From NCBI GenBank assembly GCA_030605565.1, contig JAUWIB010000105.1:10650-74649 (forward strand): a DNA stretch of 64,000 bases, read 5' to 3'. Position 1 is the first letter of the stretch. Every line of letters begins with the position of its first letter. Source of the stretch: a bacterium. GTDB taxonomy: Bacteria > Zixibacteria > MSB-5A5 > GN15 > FEB-12. Both the position numbers and the translations under genes were made by a program. Shown here piece by piece: positions 51,928 through 57,323 of this stretch. A model generated the notes under the pieces. The model did no database searches. It had not been told where the DNA came from and saw only the letters and a list, made by a program, of their open reading frames with translations.

Positions 51928-53277
51928 TCAGCTTTTCCGGAGGTTATATTCTTTGATCTTGGCCCGCAGAGTATTGCGGTGGATGCCCAGTTTTTCGGCG
52001 CAGAGTCCCAGATTCCAGTCCAGTTGGTCGAGACAATGTTTGATGTGACGCCTTTCCATGTCGGACAATGGAACCACCGTCTCGGCGGCGCCTGAATTGC
52101 CCTTGAGGGTGAGACCGGTCAAGTCTTCCCTGGTGATACGGTCCGAACGTGTCAGCACAACGGCTCGTTCGATAATGTTCTCCAGTTCGCGAACATTCCC
52201 CGGCCAGTTGTACCGGACCAGCAGTTCAGCCGCTTCACTGTCAACGCCTGTTATTTCCTTGCCGATCTTGCGGCTGAACCGTTCGACAAACTTCTCGGTC
52301 AACAGCAGGACATCGCCGGCTCGTTCGACCAGAGGAGGCATGTCGATCGTTATCACATTCAACCGGTAGTACAAATCGTCACGGAAGCTGCCCTGAGCCA
52401 TCGCCTTCAACAGATCGCGGTTGGTAGCGGTGATGATTCTGATATCGAGCGGAATCTCCTTGACCGATCCGAGACGTTGAATCTTGTGCTCCTCCAGCAC
52501 ACGCAAGAGCTTGACCTGCATGGAAGGCGGCATTTCACCGATCTCGTCAAGGAACAAAGTGCCACCGTCGGCCAGTTCGAAGCGACCTTGCTTGGCGCGA
52601 TCGGCGCCGGTGAAGGCTCCCTTCTCGAAGCCGAACAGTTCCGATTCGAGTAAGGTTTCCGGGAAAGCGGCGCAGTTGATAGCGACCAGTTCTTTTTCGG
52701 CTCGTGGTGAAAGAGCGTGAATAGCCCGCGCTACCAACTCCTTGCCCGTCCCCGATGGTCCCGTAATCAGGACGGTTGCATCTTTGGGCGCTACCAGCGA
52801 GATCATCTCTTTCACTTTGAGCATGGCCGGCGATTCACCGATCATCTCGGAGGTGGGAAAAACTTCGGCCAGTCGTTCGCTCATCACTTTGTGCTCAACG
52901 ACAAGACGGTTCTGCTGCACCGCTTTCTCAAGTTTGAGCAGAAGTTCGTCAAGATTCTCGACCGGTTTGGTCAGATAGTCGAATGCACCTGCCTTGATAG
53001 CCGCCACCGCTGTCTCGACCGAGCCGAAAGCTGTCAATACCAGAACCTGGATGAACGGATTGATCTCACGGAGTTTTCCCAACAACTCCAGTCCGGTCAT
53101 GCCCGGCATTTTCATATCGACGATAGCCAGAGGAGAGAAAACATGATGATATTCCTCCAACGCCCTGGCGCCGGAGGCAAAGGTGTGAACCTCAAATCCT
53201 TTCTTGGAGAGAAACCCGGCCAGCATTTCACGCTGCCCGGCTTCGTCGTCCACCACCAGAAGTTTTGTCTCAGCCAT
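51928..53277 (-). CDS. Sigma-54-dependent response regulator (NtrC/AtoC family: REC + AAA+ + Fis-type HTH)
   Basis: REC: [14 protein letters not shown]...[15 protein letters not shown]...KP. AAA+: [14 protein letters not shown] loop ([33 protein letters not shown]), ...[11 protein letters not shown]-terminal HTH: [14 protein letters not shown]. Confidence 0.92.
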
Positions 53278-54379: not shown

Positions 54380-54555
54380 AGGTCACCCAACGCCACAGTC
54401 CCTTAACGGTCTTGTCAGTTTGCCCGGAGAGTAGCTGAAAACATACATTCGCATTTTGCAGTTGCGTGACGACCGCTGTTGAGTTATTTAGTGCCTGTTA
54501 CAGGTCCGAACTGAGCGTGATCAGACATGGTTACAGAAAGATCGGGCTTGGCCAT

Positions 54556-54627
54556 GCCCCCGTGGTGTAACGGATAACGCGTCGGCCTCCGGAGCCGTAA
54601 ATCCAGGTTCGATTCCTGGCGGGGGTA
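54556..54627 (+). tRNA. tRNA-Arg (anticodon CCG)
   Basis: Manual cloverleaf. Acceptor GCCCCCG/CGGGGGT (G1-U72 wobble). D-stem GTGT/ACGC. Anticodon stem (T)CGGC/GCCG(T) with loop CTCCGGA. 4-nt variable loop. T-arm CCAGG-TTCGATT-CCTGG. Discriminator A. CCA is not encoded. Confidence 0.85.
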
Positions 54628-54629
54628 TT
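54604..54629 (+). repeat. Direct repeat copy 1 (tRNA-Arg 3' end; att-like core)
   Basis: CAGGTTCGATTCCTGGCGGGGGTATT. It recurs at 56175-56200 with one mismatch. Confidence 0.8.
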
Positions 54630-54709
54630 TTGAAACGCTGATGTCACCCACAGCAAGCTGTGTACCACCCGGCAAGAAGGTCTGTGGAGCGAGCCACCTG
54701 TCTCGTATA

Positions 54710-55423
54710 CTATCTCGTTCCCGGTTTCCTTGTTCTCGATACCAGTTCATCAAGGAGTGCGAACAGCTTCTGTTTCAGTTCTATATCAGCCTCTACACGC
54801 TTCCGTTTCAGAAACCTATATACACGAAACCGAGTGATCCGGCCAATCCGCCTAGCGACGGCCCTGATATCATCTTCAAGGGTGTCACGTAAATGGCTAT
54901 CATAGAAATCTCTCGCGGCAGCAGTGATTCCTGCGATATCTCCGCTGTCTTCAGGGGCTGGCGTGCCTGTTCCAAAGAGCGTCTCTACTGAACTCAAATA
55001 CCTGCGAATATCTGACTGAGTACGCGACCGGCCCGAAAGCGAGAAGGCCAGCAGTGGGTCAATGGTAGCAATGTCTACTATGGTCTGCTCATAGGAACCA
55101 CACAATGATTGAAGGGCCTCTTGTCGGAGCGGCACAACCAAAGGTTCTATGAACTGCTGAAGGAACTCTCGAAGCTGTTCTGTTGTATATGAGTTGGCGG
55201 TGTCCGGATCATTGCTCTGTATCCATTCGTGAAGCGTTGAACTTGCCTGCGTCAAATTGGGAGGAGCCGTCAGATGGTGAAGGTTCATCAAGTTGAATAG
55301 CGCTCGCCGCAGCCGCCGCTTGTCCTCCCCCCGCTGGCGTAGATGGGCCGTTATCTCGTTGAGGAGAAAGCCAAGTAGAACGCCGCCTAGGACGCCAAAT
55401 ACACTCACAATGCCAGCATCCAT
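54710..55423 (-). CDS. Hypothetical protein, N-terminal TM anchor plus an all-helical domain (237 aa), ORFan
   Basis: MDAGIVSVFGVLGGVLLGFLLNEI TM, with the remainder charged and helical. No motif recognised. It lies inside the repeat-bounded islet. Confidence 0.55.
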   Translation of the reverse strand: MDAGIVSVFGVLGGVLLGFLLNEITAHLRQRGEDKRRLRRALFNLMNLHHLTAPPNLTQASSTLHEWIQSNDPDTANSYTTEQLREFLQQFIEPLVVPLRQEALQSLCGSYEQTIVDIATIDPLLAFSLSGRSRTQSDIRRYLSSVETLFGTGTPAPEDSGDIAGITAAARDFYDSHLRDTLEDDIRAVARRIGRITRFRVYRFLKRKRVEADIELKQKLFALLDELVSRTRKPGTR

Positions 55424-55623
55424 GGGCTTACAACCTCCGGTTACAGGTTCACAATTAAAGATTCTAGCTTACCCAGCACAACTTGATTTTTCCAAGAGTC
55501 GGAGATTCTCACAAGACGGCTGCAGGAATACCCCTTAGACAAATCAGACACCCGTTTTTCAAACATATGCCCATAACCTGTACTTATCACAGGTTTGGGA
55601 ATATCCGATTCTCTGTCGAAGAA

Positions 55624-55863
55624 TCAGTGCTCTCGGTCGAGAAGGGATTGGATTTTCTCCATGTCAGCTCCTTCCCCCAAGTCAAAGACTATATCAGCGT
55701 CGTTCGAACCGGTGATACTTCTTGCATTCTCGTTTAGGGGTATATTATTCGCTTTGAATAGATCGCGTACTTTGCCCCCTTGTGCTTCAGGTACAATGAC
55801 GTAGGGTCCTGCAGTACCATCACACTTGACTTCAATGCGATTTCCAGTTAGGTCGTCAATCAT
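55624..55863 (-). CDS. Hypothetical small acidic protein (79 aa), ORFan
   Basis: SD GGAAGGA lies 6 nt upstream of the ATG (MIDDLTGNRIEVKCDG...). No family recognised. Confidence 0.5.
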   Translation of the reverse strand: MIDDLTGNRIEVKCDGTAGPYVIVPEAQGGKVRDLFKANNIPLNENARSITGSNDADIVFDLGEGADMEKIQSLLDREH

Positions 55864-56136
55864 TCTAGTTCCTTCCGCTATATTGGCTACGGGGTACTCC
55901 CCTTATTCAGAATATTCGGCAACCGATGGACAAGACTTAGCGGTTTTTAGTTGAAAAGCAGAGGCAATGCACGTACACTTGCACGCAATATGAGACGTGT
56001 TATTTCACAAAGAGCCCAGGGAATCACACGATCAGTGATGAACATCTCTAGAAGTAGGGCCTCTGATTTTTCACGGCTCATAGGTGACGCCTACGCTGTA
56101 CGTTGTTGTTGCACCACGGACTCACGTCTGGGCTAC

Positions 56137-56200
56137 CCGGGAAATTGAGCATCTGCCTTTTATGCAGAGGGTAGCAGGTTCGATTCCCGGCGGGGGTATT
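56137..56200 (+). pseudogene. Chimeric tRNA-like relic: tRNA-Lys(UUU)-type anticodon arm and T-loop fused to the tRNA-Arg 3' end
   Basis: GAGCA-TCTGC-CTTTTAT-GCAGA-GGGTA-GCAGG-TTCGATT-CC then CGGCGGGGGTATT. The 5-bp anticodon stem with its CUUUUAU loop is perfect. The T-stem has 2 mismatches, and there is no 5' acceptor or D-arm strand. Confidence 0.5.
56175..56200 (+). repeat. Direct repeat copy 2 (25/26 identical to 54604-54629)
   Basis: CAGGTTCGATTCCCGGCGGGGGTATT, in the same orientation as the tRNA. Confidence 0.8.
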
Positions 56201-56257
56201 GCTAATGGAATGATGGGATGGTATCAGGGAGACCGTCTACTCCACAGGGGGACCAAC

Positions 56258-56755
56258 CTACGAAACTTCTGCCGCCTCGCCCCCACTCTTGCCCCACTTG
56301 ATAAAACCGAACAACTCCGACAACACCTTCGGAAAAAAGCCCAGCCATAAGATCAGCGGCAGGGCATCGTTCACGAGGTAGATCGGGACGATGATCCGGT
56401 AAGCGCTTTTTGACATCGAGTATGCCTCGACGATATAATAGATGGCGATGGACATGGCGATGTGCACGAGCACGATGACGGCCAGACCGCCGAAGAGCGC
56501 GAGCAACGATTGTCTCCAATGCTTGATGATGCCGGGCGTTGCCAGCAGCAGCGCCAGGTATGGCACGAGGTTCGTGAAATGCTCAGCGGTCAACGCCAGA
56601 TGCCAGGTGCGTACCCCGAACAGCTTGAAGAAAAACGTCGCAATCGGATCGATCCAGTAAGGATAGGCATGTTGGCACTGTGTGAACCAGAGCCAGCCGA
56701 GCAGCAGAGTGGCGGGTAGCAGTTTAAGAAGAAACAGCCACAGGTTTCTTTTCAC
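56258..56755 (-). CDS. Polytopic membrane protein, likely exosortase-associated partner
   Basis: 165 aa with 4-5 TM segments. It overlaps the stop of the exosortase-like gene by 32 nt. The association is inferred from coupling only. Confidence 0.55.
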   Translation of the reverse strand: MKRNLWLFLLKLLPATLLLGWLWFTQCQHAYPYWIDPIATFFFKLFGVRTWHLALTAEHFTNLVPYLALLLATPGIIKHWRQSLLALFGGLAVIVLVHIAMSIAIYYIVEAYSMSKSAYRIIVPIYLVNDALPLILWLGFFPKVLSELFGFIKWGKSGGEAAEVS

Positions 56756-57323
56756 GGTACACCACCAGATACAACCACCCGACCCAGACCGACCCGATCA
56801 TGATTATCAGCGTCCCCTGCCAAAAGTAGAGATGCATGAAGTCGAACGCTGCCGGCCAAAAAGCGCCGACTACAATCAGCAGCGTAATGCGCACAACATT
56901 GAACAAGTAAATGGCCGGCAAACCGATCAGCAAGCCAAGGAGTTTCTTGCGAATTGTCGTCGAGAAGGACAGCACCGCAGCGAGGTAAATGACCATCTCC
57001 AGTAAACCCGTACATTCATCGATGATCTCAACCATAAAGCCGTGGAAGGCACAATGCTTGCCCTGGTAGAACACCTCGTCTGAAAAGATCGAAAGGACGA
57101 AACCGGAGATATGAGCCGTCGCCTTCATCAAGGGAATGAGGCTGTCATGATAGCTGGCCGTCACGTGCGCGTAGATCCCACCGAAAACGGCCAGACCGAC
57201 CAAAAACAGAATTATGAACTTGAGAATGGGTGAGAGTTTGCGCCTCTGTTTCGTGGACGCCGGGACTGGTTGCGAATCGTTCGGGGTTAGGTTCGGAGTG
57301 TCGGAGTCGTTTTGTGCTGTCAT
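56724..57323 (-). CDS. Exosortase/archaeosortase-family transpeptidase (short form)
   Basis: The ordered Cys-Arg-His catalytic contexts of the family sit in TM helices: FMVEIIDECTGLLEMVIY, then IYLFNVVRITLL, then FDFMHLYFWQG. 199 aa. Confidence 0.7.
   Translation of the reverse strand: MTAQNDSDTPNLTPNDSQPVPASTKQRRKLSPILKFIILFLVGLAVFGGIYAHVTASYHDSLIPLMKATAHISGFVLSIFSDEVFYQGKHCAFHGFMVEIIDECTGLLEMVIYLAAVLSFSTTIRKKLLGLLIGLPAIYLFNVVRITLLIVVGAFWPAAFDFMHLYFWQGTLIIMIGSVWVGWLYLVVYREKKPVAVSS

What the first reader, a model, noticed from the sequence alone, without database searches (positions are those of the whole stretch)
54556..56200. 1.5-kb ORFan islet bounded by a 26-nt direct repeat of the tRNA-Arg 3' end
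The last 24 nt of tRNA-Arg(CCG) plus 2 flanking nt (CAGGTTCGATTCCTGGCGGGGGTATT, 54604-54629) recur in the same orientation at 56175-56200 with one T-to-C change.

This is the classical attL/attR footprint of site-specific integration into a tRNA 3' end. The enclosed segment holds only two minus-strand genes with no recognisable family: a 237-aa TM-anchored helical protein and a 79-aa acidic protein. It looks AT-richer than its flanks by eye and carries no integrase.

It is either a decayed integrative element or a minimal cargo cassette. Small tRNA-linked ORFan pairs are a typical hiding place for toxin-antitoxin or anti-phage modules, so this is my best candidate for an undescribed accessory system. 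I cannot assign any activity from sequence.
Basis: partly seen in the sequence, partly recalled or inferred. Interest (0 to 1): 0.65.

Follow-up and report, generated by a model that had tools for sequence, protein, structure and literature searches.

The report
Integrase-less mini-island in a tRNA-Arg gene
A 1.57-kb piece of foreign DNA has inserted into the end of an arginine tRNA gene in this Zixibacteria-like genome; it is an ordinary kind of mobile-element relic with no integrase, carrying two genes of unknown function, one of which belongs to a large undescribed protein family often found in mobile or defence-gene regions.

Summary
The 26-nt repeat (54604-54629 and 56175-56200, one T-to-C change) is real and not expected by chance.

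Three close relatives (91-93% nt identity in the flanks) and one distant relative have an empty site. There, tRNA-Arg(CCG) abuts the sequence that follows 56200 here. So 54630-56200 is a lineage-specific, AT-richer insertion (GC 0.496 vs 0.543) with no integrase.

- The right end is a 5'-truncated tRNA-Arg(UCU)-like arm plus a conserved ~70-nt block. Related metagenome elements share both. One of these (L004) also carries both cargo genes, beside a purely UCU-type arm.
- The 237-aa protein is not an ORFan. It belongs to an uncurated family of at least 517 clusters. The model is a confident all-helical, N-terminally membrane-anchored protein with no known fold match. Family members sit beside integrases, tRNAs, HEPN, SIR2, RT and restriction genes.
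- The 79-aa acidic protein is rare (five relatives) and is not a conserved partner of that family.

Verdict: a CIME-like decayed or miniature integrative element, a new member of a known kind. Cargo function is unproven, and a defence or exclusion role is only a guess.

The parts
54555..54628 (+). Intact tRNA-Arg(CCG), the integration target. Its sequence is identical to that of relatives L007-L009.
   Evidence: ARAGORN; Rfam tRNA 58.4 bits; alignment with relatives.
54604..54629 (+). attL copy of the 26-nt direct repeat (T-arm, 3' acceptor strand and TT).
   Evidence: It is identical to the attB of relatives.
54630..56200 (.). The inserted 1,571-bp islet. It is absent from relatives and has GC 0.496.
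   Evidence: Empty sites in L007-L010; flanks collinear in L007/L009; composition.
54630..54709 (-). 80-nt left-end spacer between attL and the stop codon of the 237-aa gene. It contains a CACAGC/GCTGTG inverted repeat. No related sequence was available for comparison.
   Evidence: Read directly from the sequence.
54710..55423 (-). Gene for a 237-aa protein with an N-terminal transmembrane helix and a helical bundle. It belongs to an uncurated family of about 240-aa proteins.
   Evidence: ORF. 517 clusters at E<=1e-3. AF2 pLDDT 92.4, all helices. Hydropathy maximum at residues 3-21 and pI 8.8. dN/dS 0.15-0.17. No Pfam, PADLOC, PDB or BFVD match.
55424..55623 (-). Conserved non-coding spacer between the two genes, possibly a 5'UTR, promoter or small RNA. 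It is 83% identical to L004 with no codon-position bias.
   Evidence: Alignment; differences by codon position 8/9/8; weak hairpin covariation from 4 sequences.
55624..55863 (-). Gene for a 79-aa acidic protein (pI 4.4). Only five relatives are known.
   Evidence: ORF. Four proteins in 5.8 billion, one being the window's own, plus L057 at 51% identity. dN/dS 0.35-0.63. AF2 pLDDT only 67.8 and no significant fold match.
56056..56125 (+). Conserved element-end block (AGGGCCTCTGATTTT...GTACGTTGTTGT). L004, L057 and L064 share it, always next to a tRNA-Arg(UCU) sequence.
   Evidence: Alignment A9; pattern search in held loci.
56147..56200 (+). 5'-truncated tRNA-like arm. It runs from the 3' half of the D-stem through a UCU-type anticodon arm (loop mutated to CTTTTAT) to a CCG-type T-arm and acceptor end. 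It is not a functional tRNA.
   Evidence: Sequence; no ARAGORN call; Rfam tRNA 17 bits vs 29; comparison with genuine tRNA-Arg(TCT) genes.
56175..56200 (+). attR copy of the 26-nt direct repeat, with C instead of T at 56188.
   Evidence: attB in three relatives has T at this position.

Best explanation
Positions 54630-56200 are a small integrase-less integrative element, either a decayed relic or a miniature derivative. It entered the 3' end of the tRNA-Arg(CCG) gene by site-specific (tyrosine-recombinase-type) recombination and duplicated 26 nt.

Shown:
- The site is empty in relatives.
- The intact tRNA sits at one end and a displaced or duplicated 3' segment at the other.
- Composition is foreign and there is no recombinase gene.
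- The right end is a conserved 'element end': a ~70-nt block plus a 5'-truncated tRNA-Arg(UCU)-like arm. The same end occurs in related metagenome elements with different cargo.

Inferred:
- The element family originally targeted tRNA-Arg(UCU) genes. These share the acceptor stem and much of the T-arm with tRNA-Arg(CCG).
- This copy, or its ancestor, moved to the CCG isoacceptor gene using the shared 3' 26 nt.
- If the C at 56188 is element-derived, the crossover lay in the last 12 nt (GGCGGGGGTATT).
- Integration needed an integrase supplied in trans or since deleted.

The cargo is a 79-aa acidic protein, a conserved 200-nt non-coding spacer, and a 237-aa protein anchored in the membrane by one N-terminal helix, with a cytoplasmic helical bundle. 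Both genes are intact, with dN/dS below 1 (clear purifying selection on the 237-aa gene, weaker on the 79-aa gene).

Most likely, at low confidence (about 0.25), the 237-aa protein is a membrane-associated accessory or conflict factor (phage exclusion or abortive-infection type). Its family recurs at the edges of mobile or defence islands. The 79-aa protein would then be a lineage-specific accessory or regulator rather than an obligate antitoxin.
For: Repeat and tRNA:
- The repeat is real and non-random.
- The tRNA is confirmed.

Empty site:
- attB is empty in L007, L008, L009 and L010, with exact junctions.
- L007 and L009 are collinear with the window at 91-93% nt on both sides, missing only the islet; L008's short contig shows the same junction.
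- Islet GC is 0.496 vs 0.543 +/- 0.016.

No recombinase:
- No integrase ORF lies in the islet, and no tblastn hit occurs in the window.

The tRNA-like arm:
- Genuine tRNA-Arg(TCT) genes (L064, L072, L098, L124, L149) read ...GAGCATCTGCCTTCTAAGCAGAGGGTAGCAGGTTCGA[A/G]TCCTGCCGGGGGTATTT.
- They have the same acceptor stem as the window's tRNA-Arg(CCG).
- The first 37 nt of the window arm are TCT-type. Its last 17 nt match CCG-type at 16/17 and TCT-type at 14/17.

Related elements:
- L004 has the same 5'-truncated arm (proper TCT loop), the block, a 79-aa homologue and the start of a 237-aa homologue, at 78% nt identity overall.
- L057 has host gene, truncated arm, block, a Gp49/HTH toxin-antitoxin pair and a 79-aa homologue.
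- L064 has the block next to an intact tRNA-Arg(TCT) and AT-rich DNA with an XRE gene.
- The 69%-identical homologue in L001 lies 1.3 kb from a Phage_integrase gene, E 4e-27.

The 237-aa family:
- 517 clusters at E<=1e-3 and 131 at <=1e-10, all about 230-250 aa.
- AF2 pLDDT 92.4.
- Contexts: Marivirga island starting after tRNA-Leu, with a HEPN_LA2681 gene and a restriction-modification-type gene (Eco57I/TaqI_C/MmeI_Mtase hits). Crocinitomicaceae region with two integrases, SIR2, RT and SymE. Prophage-like region 240 bp from tRNA-Asp. Apparent operon with HEPN_LA2681. Next to a short Mg-chelatase (ComM-like) gene.

Selection:
- dN/dS is 0.15-0.17 for the 237-aa gene and 0.35-0.63 for the 79-aa gene.

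Literature:
- An intact tRNA plus a displaced fragment marks island ends (PMC4383910, PMC9897764).
- Elements that keep attL/attR but have lost their integrase are called CIMEs (PMC5704250).
Against: - No integrase was found, so integrase-mediated entry is inferred from the footprint only. The rest of the genome could not be searched.
- attL is fully CCG-type. A simple crossover between a purely UCU-type attP and the CCG gene inside the T-loop would have left UCU-type bases in the functional tRNA. The attP must therefore already have been adapted or chimeric, or the history is more complex.
- L064 shows the 'block' upstream of an intact tRNA. The block-plus-arm could thus be a decayed complete tRNA locus carried by the element rather than a classical attP arm.
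- Only one genome carries this islet, so no excision product or second insertion has been seen.
- Evidence for a defence role is contextual only: about 10 neighbourhoods, no statistics, no PADLOC match, and no homologue in phage, plasmid or IMG/VR collections.
- Some family members sit among ordinary genes (L031).
Confidence: 0.8

Rival explanations
1. The islet is still a live, minimal cargo cassette. It keeps functional attL and attR and is excised and re-integrated by an integrase encoded elsewhere (trans- or cis-mobilisation, like a CIME or satellite). It is not a dead relic.
For: Both att copies are nearly intact at 25/26. Both genes are intact and evolving under constraint, clearly for the 237-aa gene. 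The element end (block plus arm) is conserved across L004, L057 and L064. The same 79+237 module sits beside a UCU-type arm in L004 and at a CCG tRNA here, which implies past mobility.
Against: No integrase with matching specificity has been seen, and only the 64-kb window could be searched. No excised circle or second copy was found. The left end has no comparator. One att mismatch and a decayed anticodon loop fit either view.
Confidence: 0.3
2. The two genes form a toxin-antitoxin-like pair. The 237-aa protein is a membrane toxin and the 79-aa acidic protein its neutraliser, stabilising the islet.
For: The genes are adjacent and co-oriented on a mobile islet. A small acidic partner lies upstream of a larger basic membrane protein. 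The pair recurs in L004. A related element (L057) carries a genuine Gp49/HTH toxin-antitoxin pair at the same position.
Against: Neither protein has a toxin or antitoxin domain. The genes are 200 nt apart, separated by a conserved non-coding spacer, rather than overlapping. The 237-aa family is usually solitary or has unrelated neighbours (L001, L002, L025, L027, L028, L030, L031), so it does not need this antitoxin. The 79-aa structure model is of low confidence.
Confidence: 0.12
3. The segment is ancestral, and the relatives lost it by deletion between the 26-nt repeats. Alternatively, the distal copy is the remnant of an old tandem tRNA gene.
For: Recombination between direct repeats would leave exactly the empty site seen in relatives.
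Against: All four relatives are empty, including one with only 60% exosortase identity. The islet has foreign composition. Its right end is homologous to ends of elements in unrelated contigs (L004, L057, L064). The distal arm is UCU-type, not a CCG duplicate. Loss by excision would in any case still make it a mobile element.
Confidence: 0.05
4. The structure is an assembly or binning chimera. A foreign contig was joined at a shared tRNA-like repeat.
For: The source is a metagenome-assembled genome, and repeats of 26 nt can mis-join contigs.
Against: A separate Logan assembly of run SRR14876848 gives the identical 3,408-bp stretch spanning both junctions. 26 nt is shorter than usual assembly k-mers or read lengths. 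Both junctions are exactly at the att core.
Confidence: 0.03

Closest known systems
tRNA-targeted genomic islands integrated by tyrosine recombinases (Islander-type islands; Williams 2002 sublocation scheme, cited from my own knowledge and via PMC4383910 and PMC9897764)
   Same: An intact tRNA sits at one end and a direct repeat of its 3' part at the other. The site is empty in relatives and the composition is foreign. The element-borne sequence lies next to the displaced fragment.
   Different: The islet has no integrase and is only 1.57 kb; islands in Islander are typically several kb to over 100 kb and are defined with an integrase. The att arm is longer than the repeat and derives from a different isoacceptor (UCU) than the occupied gene (CCG).
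CIMEs (cis-mobilizable elements) of streptococci: decayed ICE/IME that retain attL and attR (PMC5704250)
   Same: [quoted passage not shown] A related gene copy (L001) lies next to an integrase.
   Different: It comes from a different phylum (Zixibacteria-like MAG). No ICE or IME parent has been identified. Neither accretion with an incoming element nor mobilisation has been shown.
Partial tRNA genes left by element integration, e.g. PYG1 in Pyrococcus yayanosii with 44-bp repeats differing at 1 bp (PMC9897764)
   Same: There is one complete and one partial tRNA copy in direct orientation with a single mismatch. The partial copy is detected only weakly as a tRNA.
   Different: Here the partial copy is chimeric, combining a UCU-type anticodon arm with a CCG-type 3' end.
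Single-gene membrane-anchored phage-exclusion or abortive-infection proteins found in defence islands (general class; from my own knowledge)
   Same: The 237-aa protein is small, has one transmembrane anchor and no enzymatic motif, and has patchy distribution. Its neighbours include HEPN, SIR2, RT, restriction-modification-type and toxin-antitoxin genes and integrases.
   Different: There is no sequence or fold similarity to any PADLOC model, Pfam family, PDB entry or BFVD model. No phenotype is known.

Membership tests
tRNA-integrated genomic island (Islander definition) | Intact target tRNA gene at one end | tested here: met
   tRNA-Arg(CCG) at 54555-54628: ARAGORN; Rfam 58.4 bits.
tRNA-integrated genomic island (Islander definition) | Displaced 3' tRNA fragment in direct orientation at the other end | tested here: met
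   26-nt repeat matching 25/26, with 0 expected by chance.
tRNA-integrated genomic island (Islander definition) | Uninterrupted (empty) site in related genomes | tested here: met
   L007, L008, L009 and L010 are empty; flanks collinear in L007/L009.
tRNA-integrated genomic island (Islander definition) | Integrase gene inside the island | tested here: not met
   The only sizeable ORFs encode the 237-aa and 79-aa proteins, which match no integrase family. tblastn with three integrases found nothing in the window.
CIME (cis-mobilizable element) | attL and attR retained | tested here: met
CIME (cis-mobilizable element) | Integration and transfer genes lost | tested here: met
CIME (cis-mobilizable element) | Derived by decay from an ICE or IME | tested here: inconclusive
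   The element end is shared with L004, L057 and L064, and the L001 homologue lies beside a Phage_integrase gene. No complete parent element was recovered, and no relaxase or conjugation gene was seen.
CIME (cis-mobilizable element) | Mobilised in cis after accretion with an incoming element | not testable with these tools
   This needs experiments or population read data.
Functional second tRNA gene at 56.2 kb | Complete cloverleaf detected by tRNA finders | tested here: not met
   ARAGORN finds none. Rfam tRNA scores 17 bits against a gathering score of 29. The 5' acceptor and D-arm are absent. The T-stem GCAGG/CCCGG has two non-pairs and the loop reads CTTTTAT.
Type II toxin-antitoxin module | Recognisable toxin or antitoxin domains | tested here: not met
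   No Pfam, NCBIfam, PADLOC or PHROG hit.
Type II toxin-antitoxin module | Tightly coupled gene pair that co-occurs across homologues | tested here: not met
   A 200-nt conserved non-coding spacer separates the genes. The 79-aa gene is absent next to family members in L001, L002, L025, L027, L028, L030 and L031.
Known anti-phage defence systems (PADLOC-DB 2.0) | Match to a defence-protein model | tested here: not met
   The best hit is HEC-05 at E 0.008 and 12.9 bits for 1 of 60 family members. No model is shared by more than 2 members.

The most novel reading that the evidence does not exclude
The ~240-aa membrane-anchored helical protein family is a new, widespread single-gene phage-exclusion or abortive-infection effector. 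It would be spread at island edges in the Zixibacteria-like and Bacteroidota genomes and metagenomes sampled here. In this reading the islet is a live integrase-less cassette that hops between tRNA-Arg isoacceptor genes (UCU to CCG). It would do so through the shared T-arm and acceptor sequence, using an integrase supplied in trans.
Probability: 0.15. Interest if true: 0.6.

Novelty: new member of a known kind. Interest (0 to 1): 0.35.

Why it matters
The islet is a clean, fully delimited example of a minimal tRNA-site insertion in an uncultured phylum: exact attL, attR and attB, with an empty site in sister genomes.

Two things make it useful beyond bookkeeping:
- The same cargo module is seen beside att arms of two different arginine isoacceptor genes (UCU and CCG). 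The arm retains a 'fossil' of the former target. This bears on how integrative elements change target.
- It flags an uncurated family of at least 517 clusters. The predicted fold is confident yet unmatched, and members lie repeatedly beside integrases, tRNAs and defence genes. This makes a reasonable candidate list for defence-gene screens, and culturable hosts are available (Marivirga, Flavobacterium).

Nothing here overturns current understanding.

Tried and rejected
Searches on the two proteins that found nothing:
- Pfam, NCBIfam, PHROGs and PADLOC on both proteins and on 60 family members gave nothing consistent.
- A profile of the family against PDB sequences gave a best E of 0.011 (CP312R), which is not credible.
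- Foldseek of the 237-aa model against PDB and BFVD gave a best E of 0.35-0.39, only generic helical bundles.
- The 79-aa model (pLDDT 67.8) gave only a weak resemblance to a GyrA subdomain (E 0.1). I rejected it as non-significant. A profile against PDB gave E 1.2.

Collection scans that found nothing:
- IMG/VR scans for both proteins, the tRNA arm and the block: no hits.
- Phage and plasmid collections: no hits.
- JGI metagenome scan with the close subfamily: none.

Ideas considered and rejected:
- The small ORF in the spacer (49 aa from GTG or 41 aa from ATG, called as a gene by Logan). Substitutions are spread evenly over codon positions, so it is not coding.
- A conserved partner gene for the family. 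All-vs-all BLASTP of neighbours found only HEPN_LA2681 shared by two loci.
- Direct repeats of tRNA-Asp or tRNA-Leu ends in L028 and L025. None were found within the 8-kb flanks held.
- Promoter and terminator scans were not above the shuffled expectation.
Full report
**1. Checking the observation**

The 26-mer CAGGTTCGATTCCTGGCGGGGGTATT lies at 54604-54629. It recurs on the same strand at 56175-56200 with one change (T to C at 56188). No other copy within three mismatches exists in the window, and 100 dinucleotide-preserving shuffles gave none.

ARAGORN finds one tRNA in the whole window, tRNA-Arg(CCG) at 54555-54628. Rfam's tRNA model scores 58.4 bits there. Between the repeats lie two minus-strand ORFs, 237 aa (54710-55423) and 79 aa (55624-55863). 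Neither matches Pfam, NCBIfam, PHROGs or PADLOC.

The islet has GC 0.496. Windows of 1571 bp average 0.543 +/- 0.016, and only 0.3% are as low. A separate Logan assembly (L003) is 100% identical across both junctions.

**2. Is it an insertion?**

Yes. I used the neighbouring exosortase gene to fetch relatives from species-representative genomes. Eighteen loci came back, most of them labelled Zixibacteria or Ignavibacteriales.

In the three closest (L007, L008, L009; 93-97% protein identity) and in a distant one (L010; 60%), tRNA-Arg(CCG) sits directly beside the 165-aa gene that follows the exosortase. The tRNA is identical in L007-L009 and the window. Its end ...GGGGGTATT runs straight into GTTAATRGAATRATGGGA..., which is the sequence found at 56201 onward in the window.

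L007 and L009 align with the window from 64000 down to 56175. The alignment resumes at 54629 and continues leftward at 91-93% nt identity, so the 1,571-bp islet is the only large difference.

In addition, the 56.2-kb copy is not a tRNA gene. ARAGORN finds none and Rfam gives 17 bits against a threshold of 29. The 5' acceptor and D-arm are missing, and the T-stem GCAGG/CCCGG has two non-pairs.

**3. Anatomy of the right end**

The sequence 5' of the distal repeat is itself tRNA-like: GAGCA-TCTGC-CTTTTAT-GCAGA-GGGTAG, from 56147. A metagenome contig (L004) carries a 79-aa homologue (74% identity) followed by the start of a 237-aa homologue. It has the same 5'-truncated arm at the same relative position, but with the loop CTTCTAA, which is the anticodon UCU.

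I scanned metagenomes for that anticodon arm. The scan returned many genuine tRNA-Arg(TCT) genes. Several read GCCCCCGTAGCTCA...GGATAGAGCATCTGCCTTCTAAGCAGAGGGTAGCAGGTTCGA[A/G]TCCTGCCGGGGGTATTT (L064, L072, L098, L124, L149). They have the same acceptor stem as the tRNA-Arg(CCG) here.

The window's arm is therefore chimeric:

| Part of the arm | Type | Match |
|---|---|---|
| First 37 nt | UCU-type | two loop changes |
| Last 17 nt | CCG-type | 16/17 (vs 14/17 for UCU-type) |

**4. Related elements share this end**

The same scan recovered L057. Its layout is a host sensor-like gene, a 5'-truncated UCU arm, a ~70-nt conserved block (AGGGCCTCTGATTTT...GTAAGTTGTTGT), a Gp49/HigB-like plus HTH toxin-antitoxin pair, and then a 79-aa homologue at 51% identity.

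The block is also present in the window (56056-56125) and in L004. In L064 it lies directly upstream of an intact tRNA-Arg(TCT), followed by AT-rich DNA with an XRE-type gene.

So the islet's right end is the conserved end of a family of tRNA-Arg-associated elements with variable cargo.

**5. What the att sites say about history**

attB in three relatives, and attL here, have T where attR has C. If the C came from the element, strand exchange took place in the last 12 nt (GGCGGGGGTATT). If the C is a later mutation in the unselected copy, nothing can be said about the crossover.

attL is entirely CCG-type. A purely UCU-type attP crossing over in the T-loop cannot explain the product. The attP must already have matched the CCG gene over its last 26 nt, which is two or three substitutions away from the UCU type.

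I infer a shift of target between isoacceptor genes that share the T-arm and acceptor sequence. This step is not shown. The L064 arrangement leaves open an alternative: that the block plus arm began as a complete tRNA locus carried by the element.

**6. No integrase**

The islet encodes none, and tblastn with three tyrosine integrases found nothing in the 64-kb window. The 69%-identical homologue of the 237-aa gene in L001 lies 1.3 kb downstream of a Phage_integrase gene (E 4e-27). DNA homology between L001 and the window is confined to the coding sequence.

[quoted passage not shown] It also fits the general rule that an intact tRNA and a displaced fragment mark island ends (PMC4383910, PMC9897764). 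Whether it is dead or can still be moved by an integrase in trans cannot be decided here.

**7. The 237-aa protein**

It is not an ORFan.

- **Family size.** A word-indexed search found only three proteins including the window's own. A full HMMER profile search of 1.84 billion representatives found 517 clusters at E<=1e-3 and 131 at <=1e-10, nearly all full-length proteins of 230-250 aa.
- **Conserved motifs.** The family shares G..GW.LNE at the end of an N-terminal hydrophobic helix, a basic RREDKR.LK.VLFNLLE stretch, Y-E...LA.IDP.LAY.LSGK, and LE.DI...A.KIG.
- **Annotation.** Members with names are 'hypothetical protein' from Crocinitomicaceae, Flavobacterium and Marivirga tractuosa.
- **Structure.** AlphaFold2 with 60 sequences gives pLDDT 92.4 and pTM 0.83. 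The model is all helices, with a 50-residue first helix whose residues 3-21 are the hydrophobic maximum. By the positive-inside rule the bundle should be cytoplasmic; this is an inference.
- **No matches.** Pfam, PADLOC, PDB sequence, PDB fold and BFVD fold searches found nothing significant.
- **Selection.** dN/dS is 0.15-0.17.

**8. Where family members sit**

| Locus | Neighbourhood |
|---|---|
| Window | 80 bp from the tRNA-Arg 3' end |
| L001 | beside an integrase |
| Marivirga (L025) | island starting after tRNA-Leu, with DUF6932/HTH, ParA-TPR, HEPN_LA2681 and a restriction-modification-type gene (Eco57I/TaqI_C/MmeI_Mtase hits) |
| Crocinitomicaceae (L027) | two integrases, SymE, SIR2 and a reverse transcriptase |
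| L028 | prophage-like stretch, convergent with tRNA-Asp 240 bp away |
| L030 | apparent operon with a 295-aa unknown and HEPN_LA2681 |
| L152 | beside a short Mg-chelatase (ComM-like) gene |
| L002, L031 | uninformative |

No neighbour is conserved except HEPN_LA2681, which two loci share. No homologue exists in the phage, plasmid or IMG/VR collections.

This pattern suggests an accessory or conflict gene carried at island edges. It is a small, uncontrolled sample.

**9. The 79-aa protein and the spacer**

The 79-aa protein is acidic (pI 4.4). It has four hits in 5.8 billion sequences, one of them the window's own protein, plus L057. dN/dS is 0.35-0.63. The structure model is of low confidence, and its only fold hint (a GyrA subdomain, E 0.1) is not significant. 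It is absent next to most members of the 237-aa family, which argues against an obligate toxin-antitoxin pair.

The 200-nt spacer between the genes is as conserved as the genes themselves (83% to L004). Its substitutions show no codon-position bias (8/9/8), so it is non-coding. RNAalifold gives hairpins with two compensated pairs, but from four sequences only.

**10. Verdict**

The feature is an integrase-less, CIME-like mini-island at tRNA-Arg(CCG): a new member of a well-known kind.

Its modest points of interest are two. The att arm is chimeric and points to a switch between arginine isoacceptor targets. The cargo includes a member of a large, structurally unmatched, uncurated protein family that recurs in mobile and defence neighbourhoods. 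Function remains unproven. I give a defence or exclusion role about one chance in four.

Noticed in passing
window 55424-55623 (- strand): The 200-nt spacer between the 79-aa and 237-aa genes is as conserved as the genes (83% to L004). It shows no codon-position bias. Predicted hairpins include two compensated pairs, so it may be a 5'UTR, small RNA or regulatory element. Logan's gene caller annotated a 41-aa ORF here.
   Followed up: partly
window 56258-57323 (- strand): A small exosortase/archaeosortase-family gene (199 aa; XrtH / archaeosortase-B-like, below the family cut-offs) overlaps a 165-aa multi-pass membrane protein of no known family. Their position next to tRNA-Arg(CCG) is conserved in the close relatives L007-L009 and in L010.
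   Followed up: no
L057 1627-2345: A Gp49/HigB-like toxin plus HTH antitoxin pair is inserted between the conserved element end and the 79-aa homologue. This shows that the element family swaps cargo at this position.
   Followed up: partly
L064 60-640: The conserved element-end block lies directly upstream of an intact tRNA-Arg(TCT). AT-rich DNA with an XRE-type HTH gene follows. It is unclear whether this is an element carrying a whole tRNA copy or a different junction type.
   Followed up: partly
L043 50-200: A tRNA-Arg(TCT) region has a second copy of its 3' 37 nt about 93 nt away in the same orientation. This may be another very short att duplication.
   Followed up: no
L027 1123-4854 and 14699-16723: A cassette of SymE toxin, a 71-aa gene, a 507-aa gene and an integrase is repeated 13.6 kb apart. 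The repeats bracket a 237-aa-family member, a SIR2 gene and a reverse transcriptase. It looks like a composite mobile defence island in a Crocinitomicaceae MAG.
   Followed up: no
L030 8001-11280; L025 8001-13551: HEPN_LA2681 proteins (37% identical to each other) lie within 3 kb of family members in two Bacteroidota genomes. In L030 the HEPN gene appears to be in an operon with the family member and a 295-aa unknown.
   Followed up: partly
L152 7080-8720; L153 724-2364: A family member sits 380 bp from a 179-aa Mg-chelatase (ComM/YifB-like) gene that looks truncated. comM is a known island insertion site, so this may be another island edge.
   Followed up: no
window 51928-53277 (- strand): A 449-aa ORF has a receiver-like N-terminus and the GAFTGA-type motif ([11 protein letters not shown]) typical of sigma-54 activators (NtrC-like). 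It is host context only.
   Followed up: no
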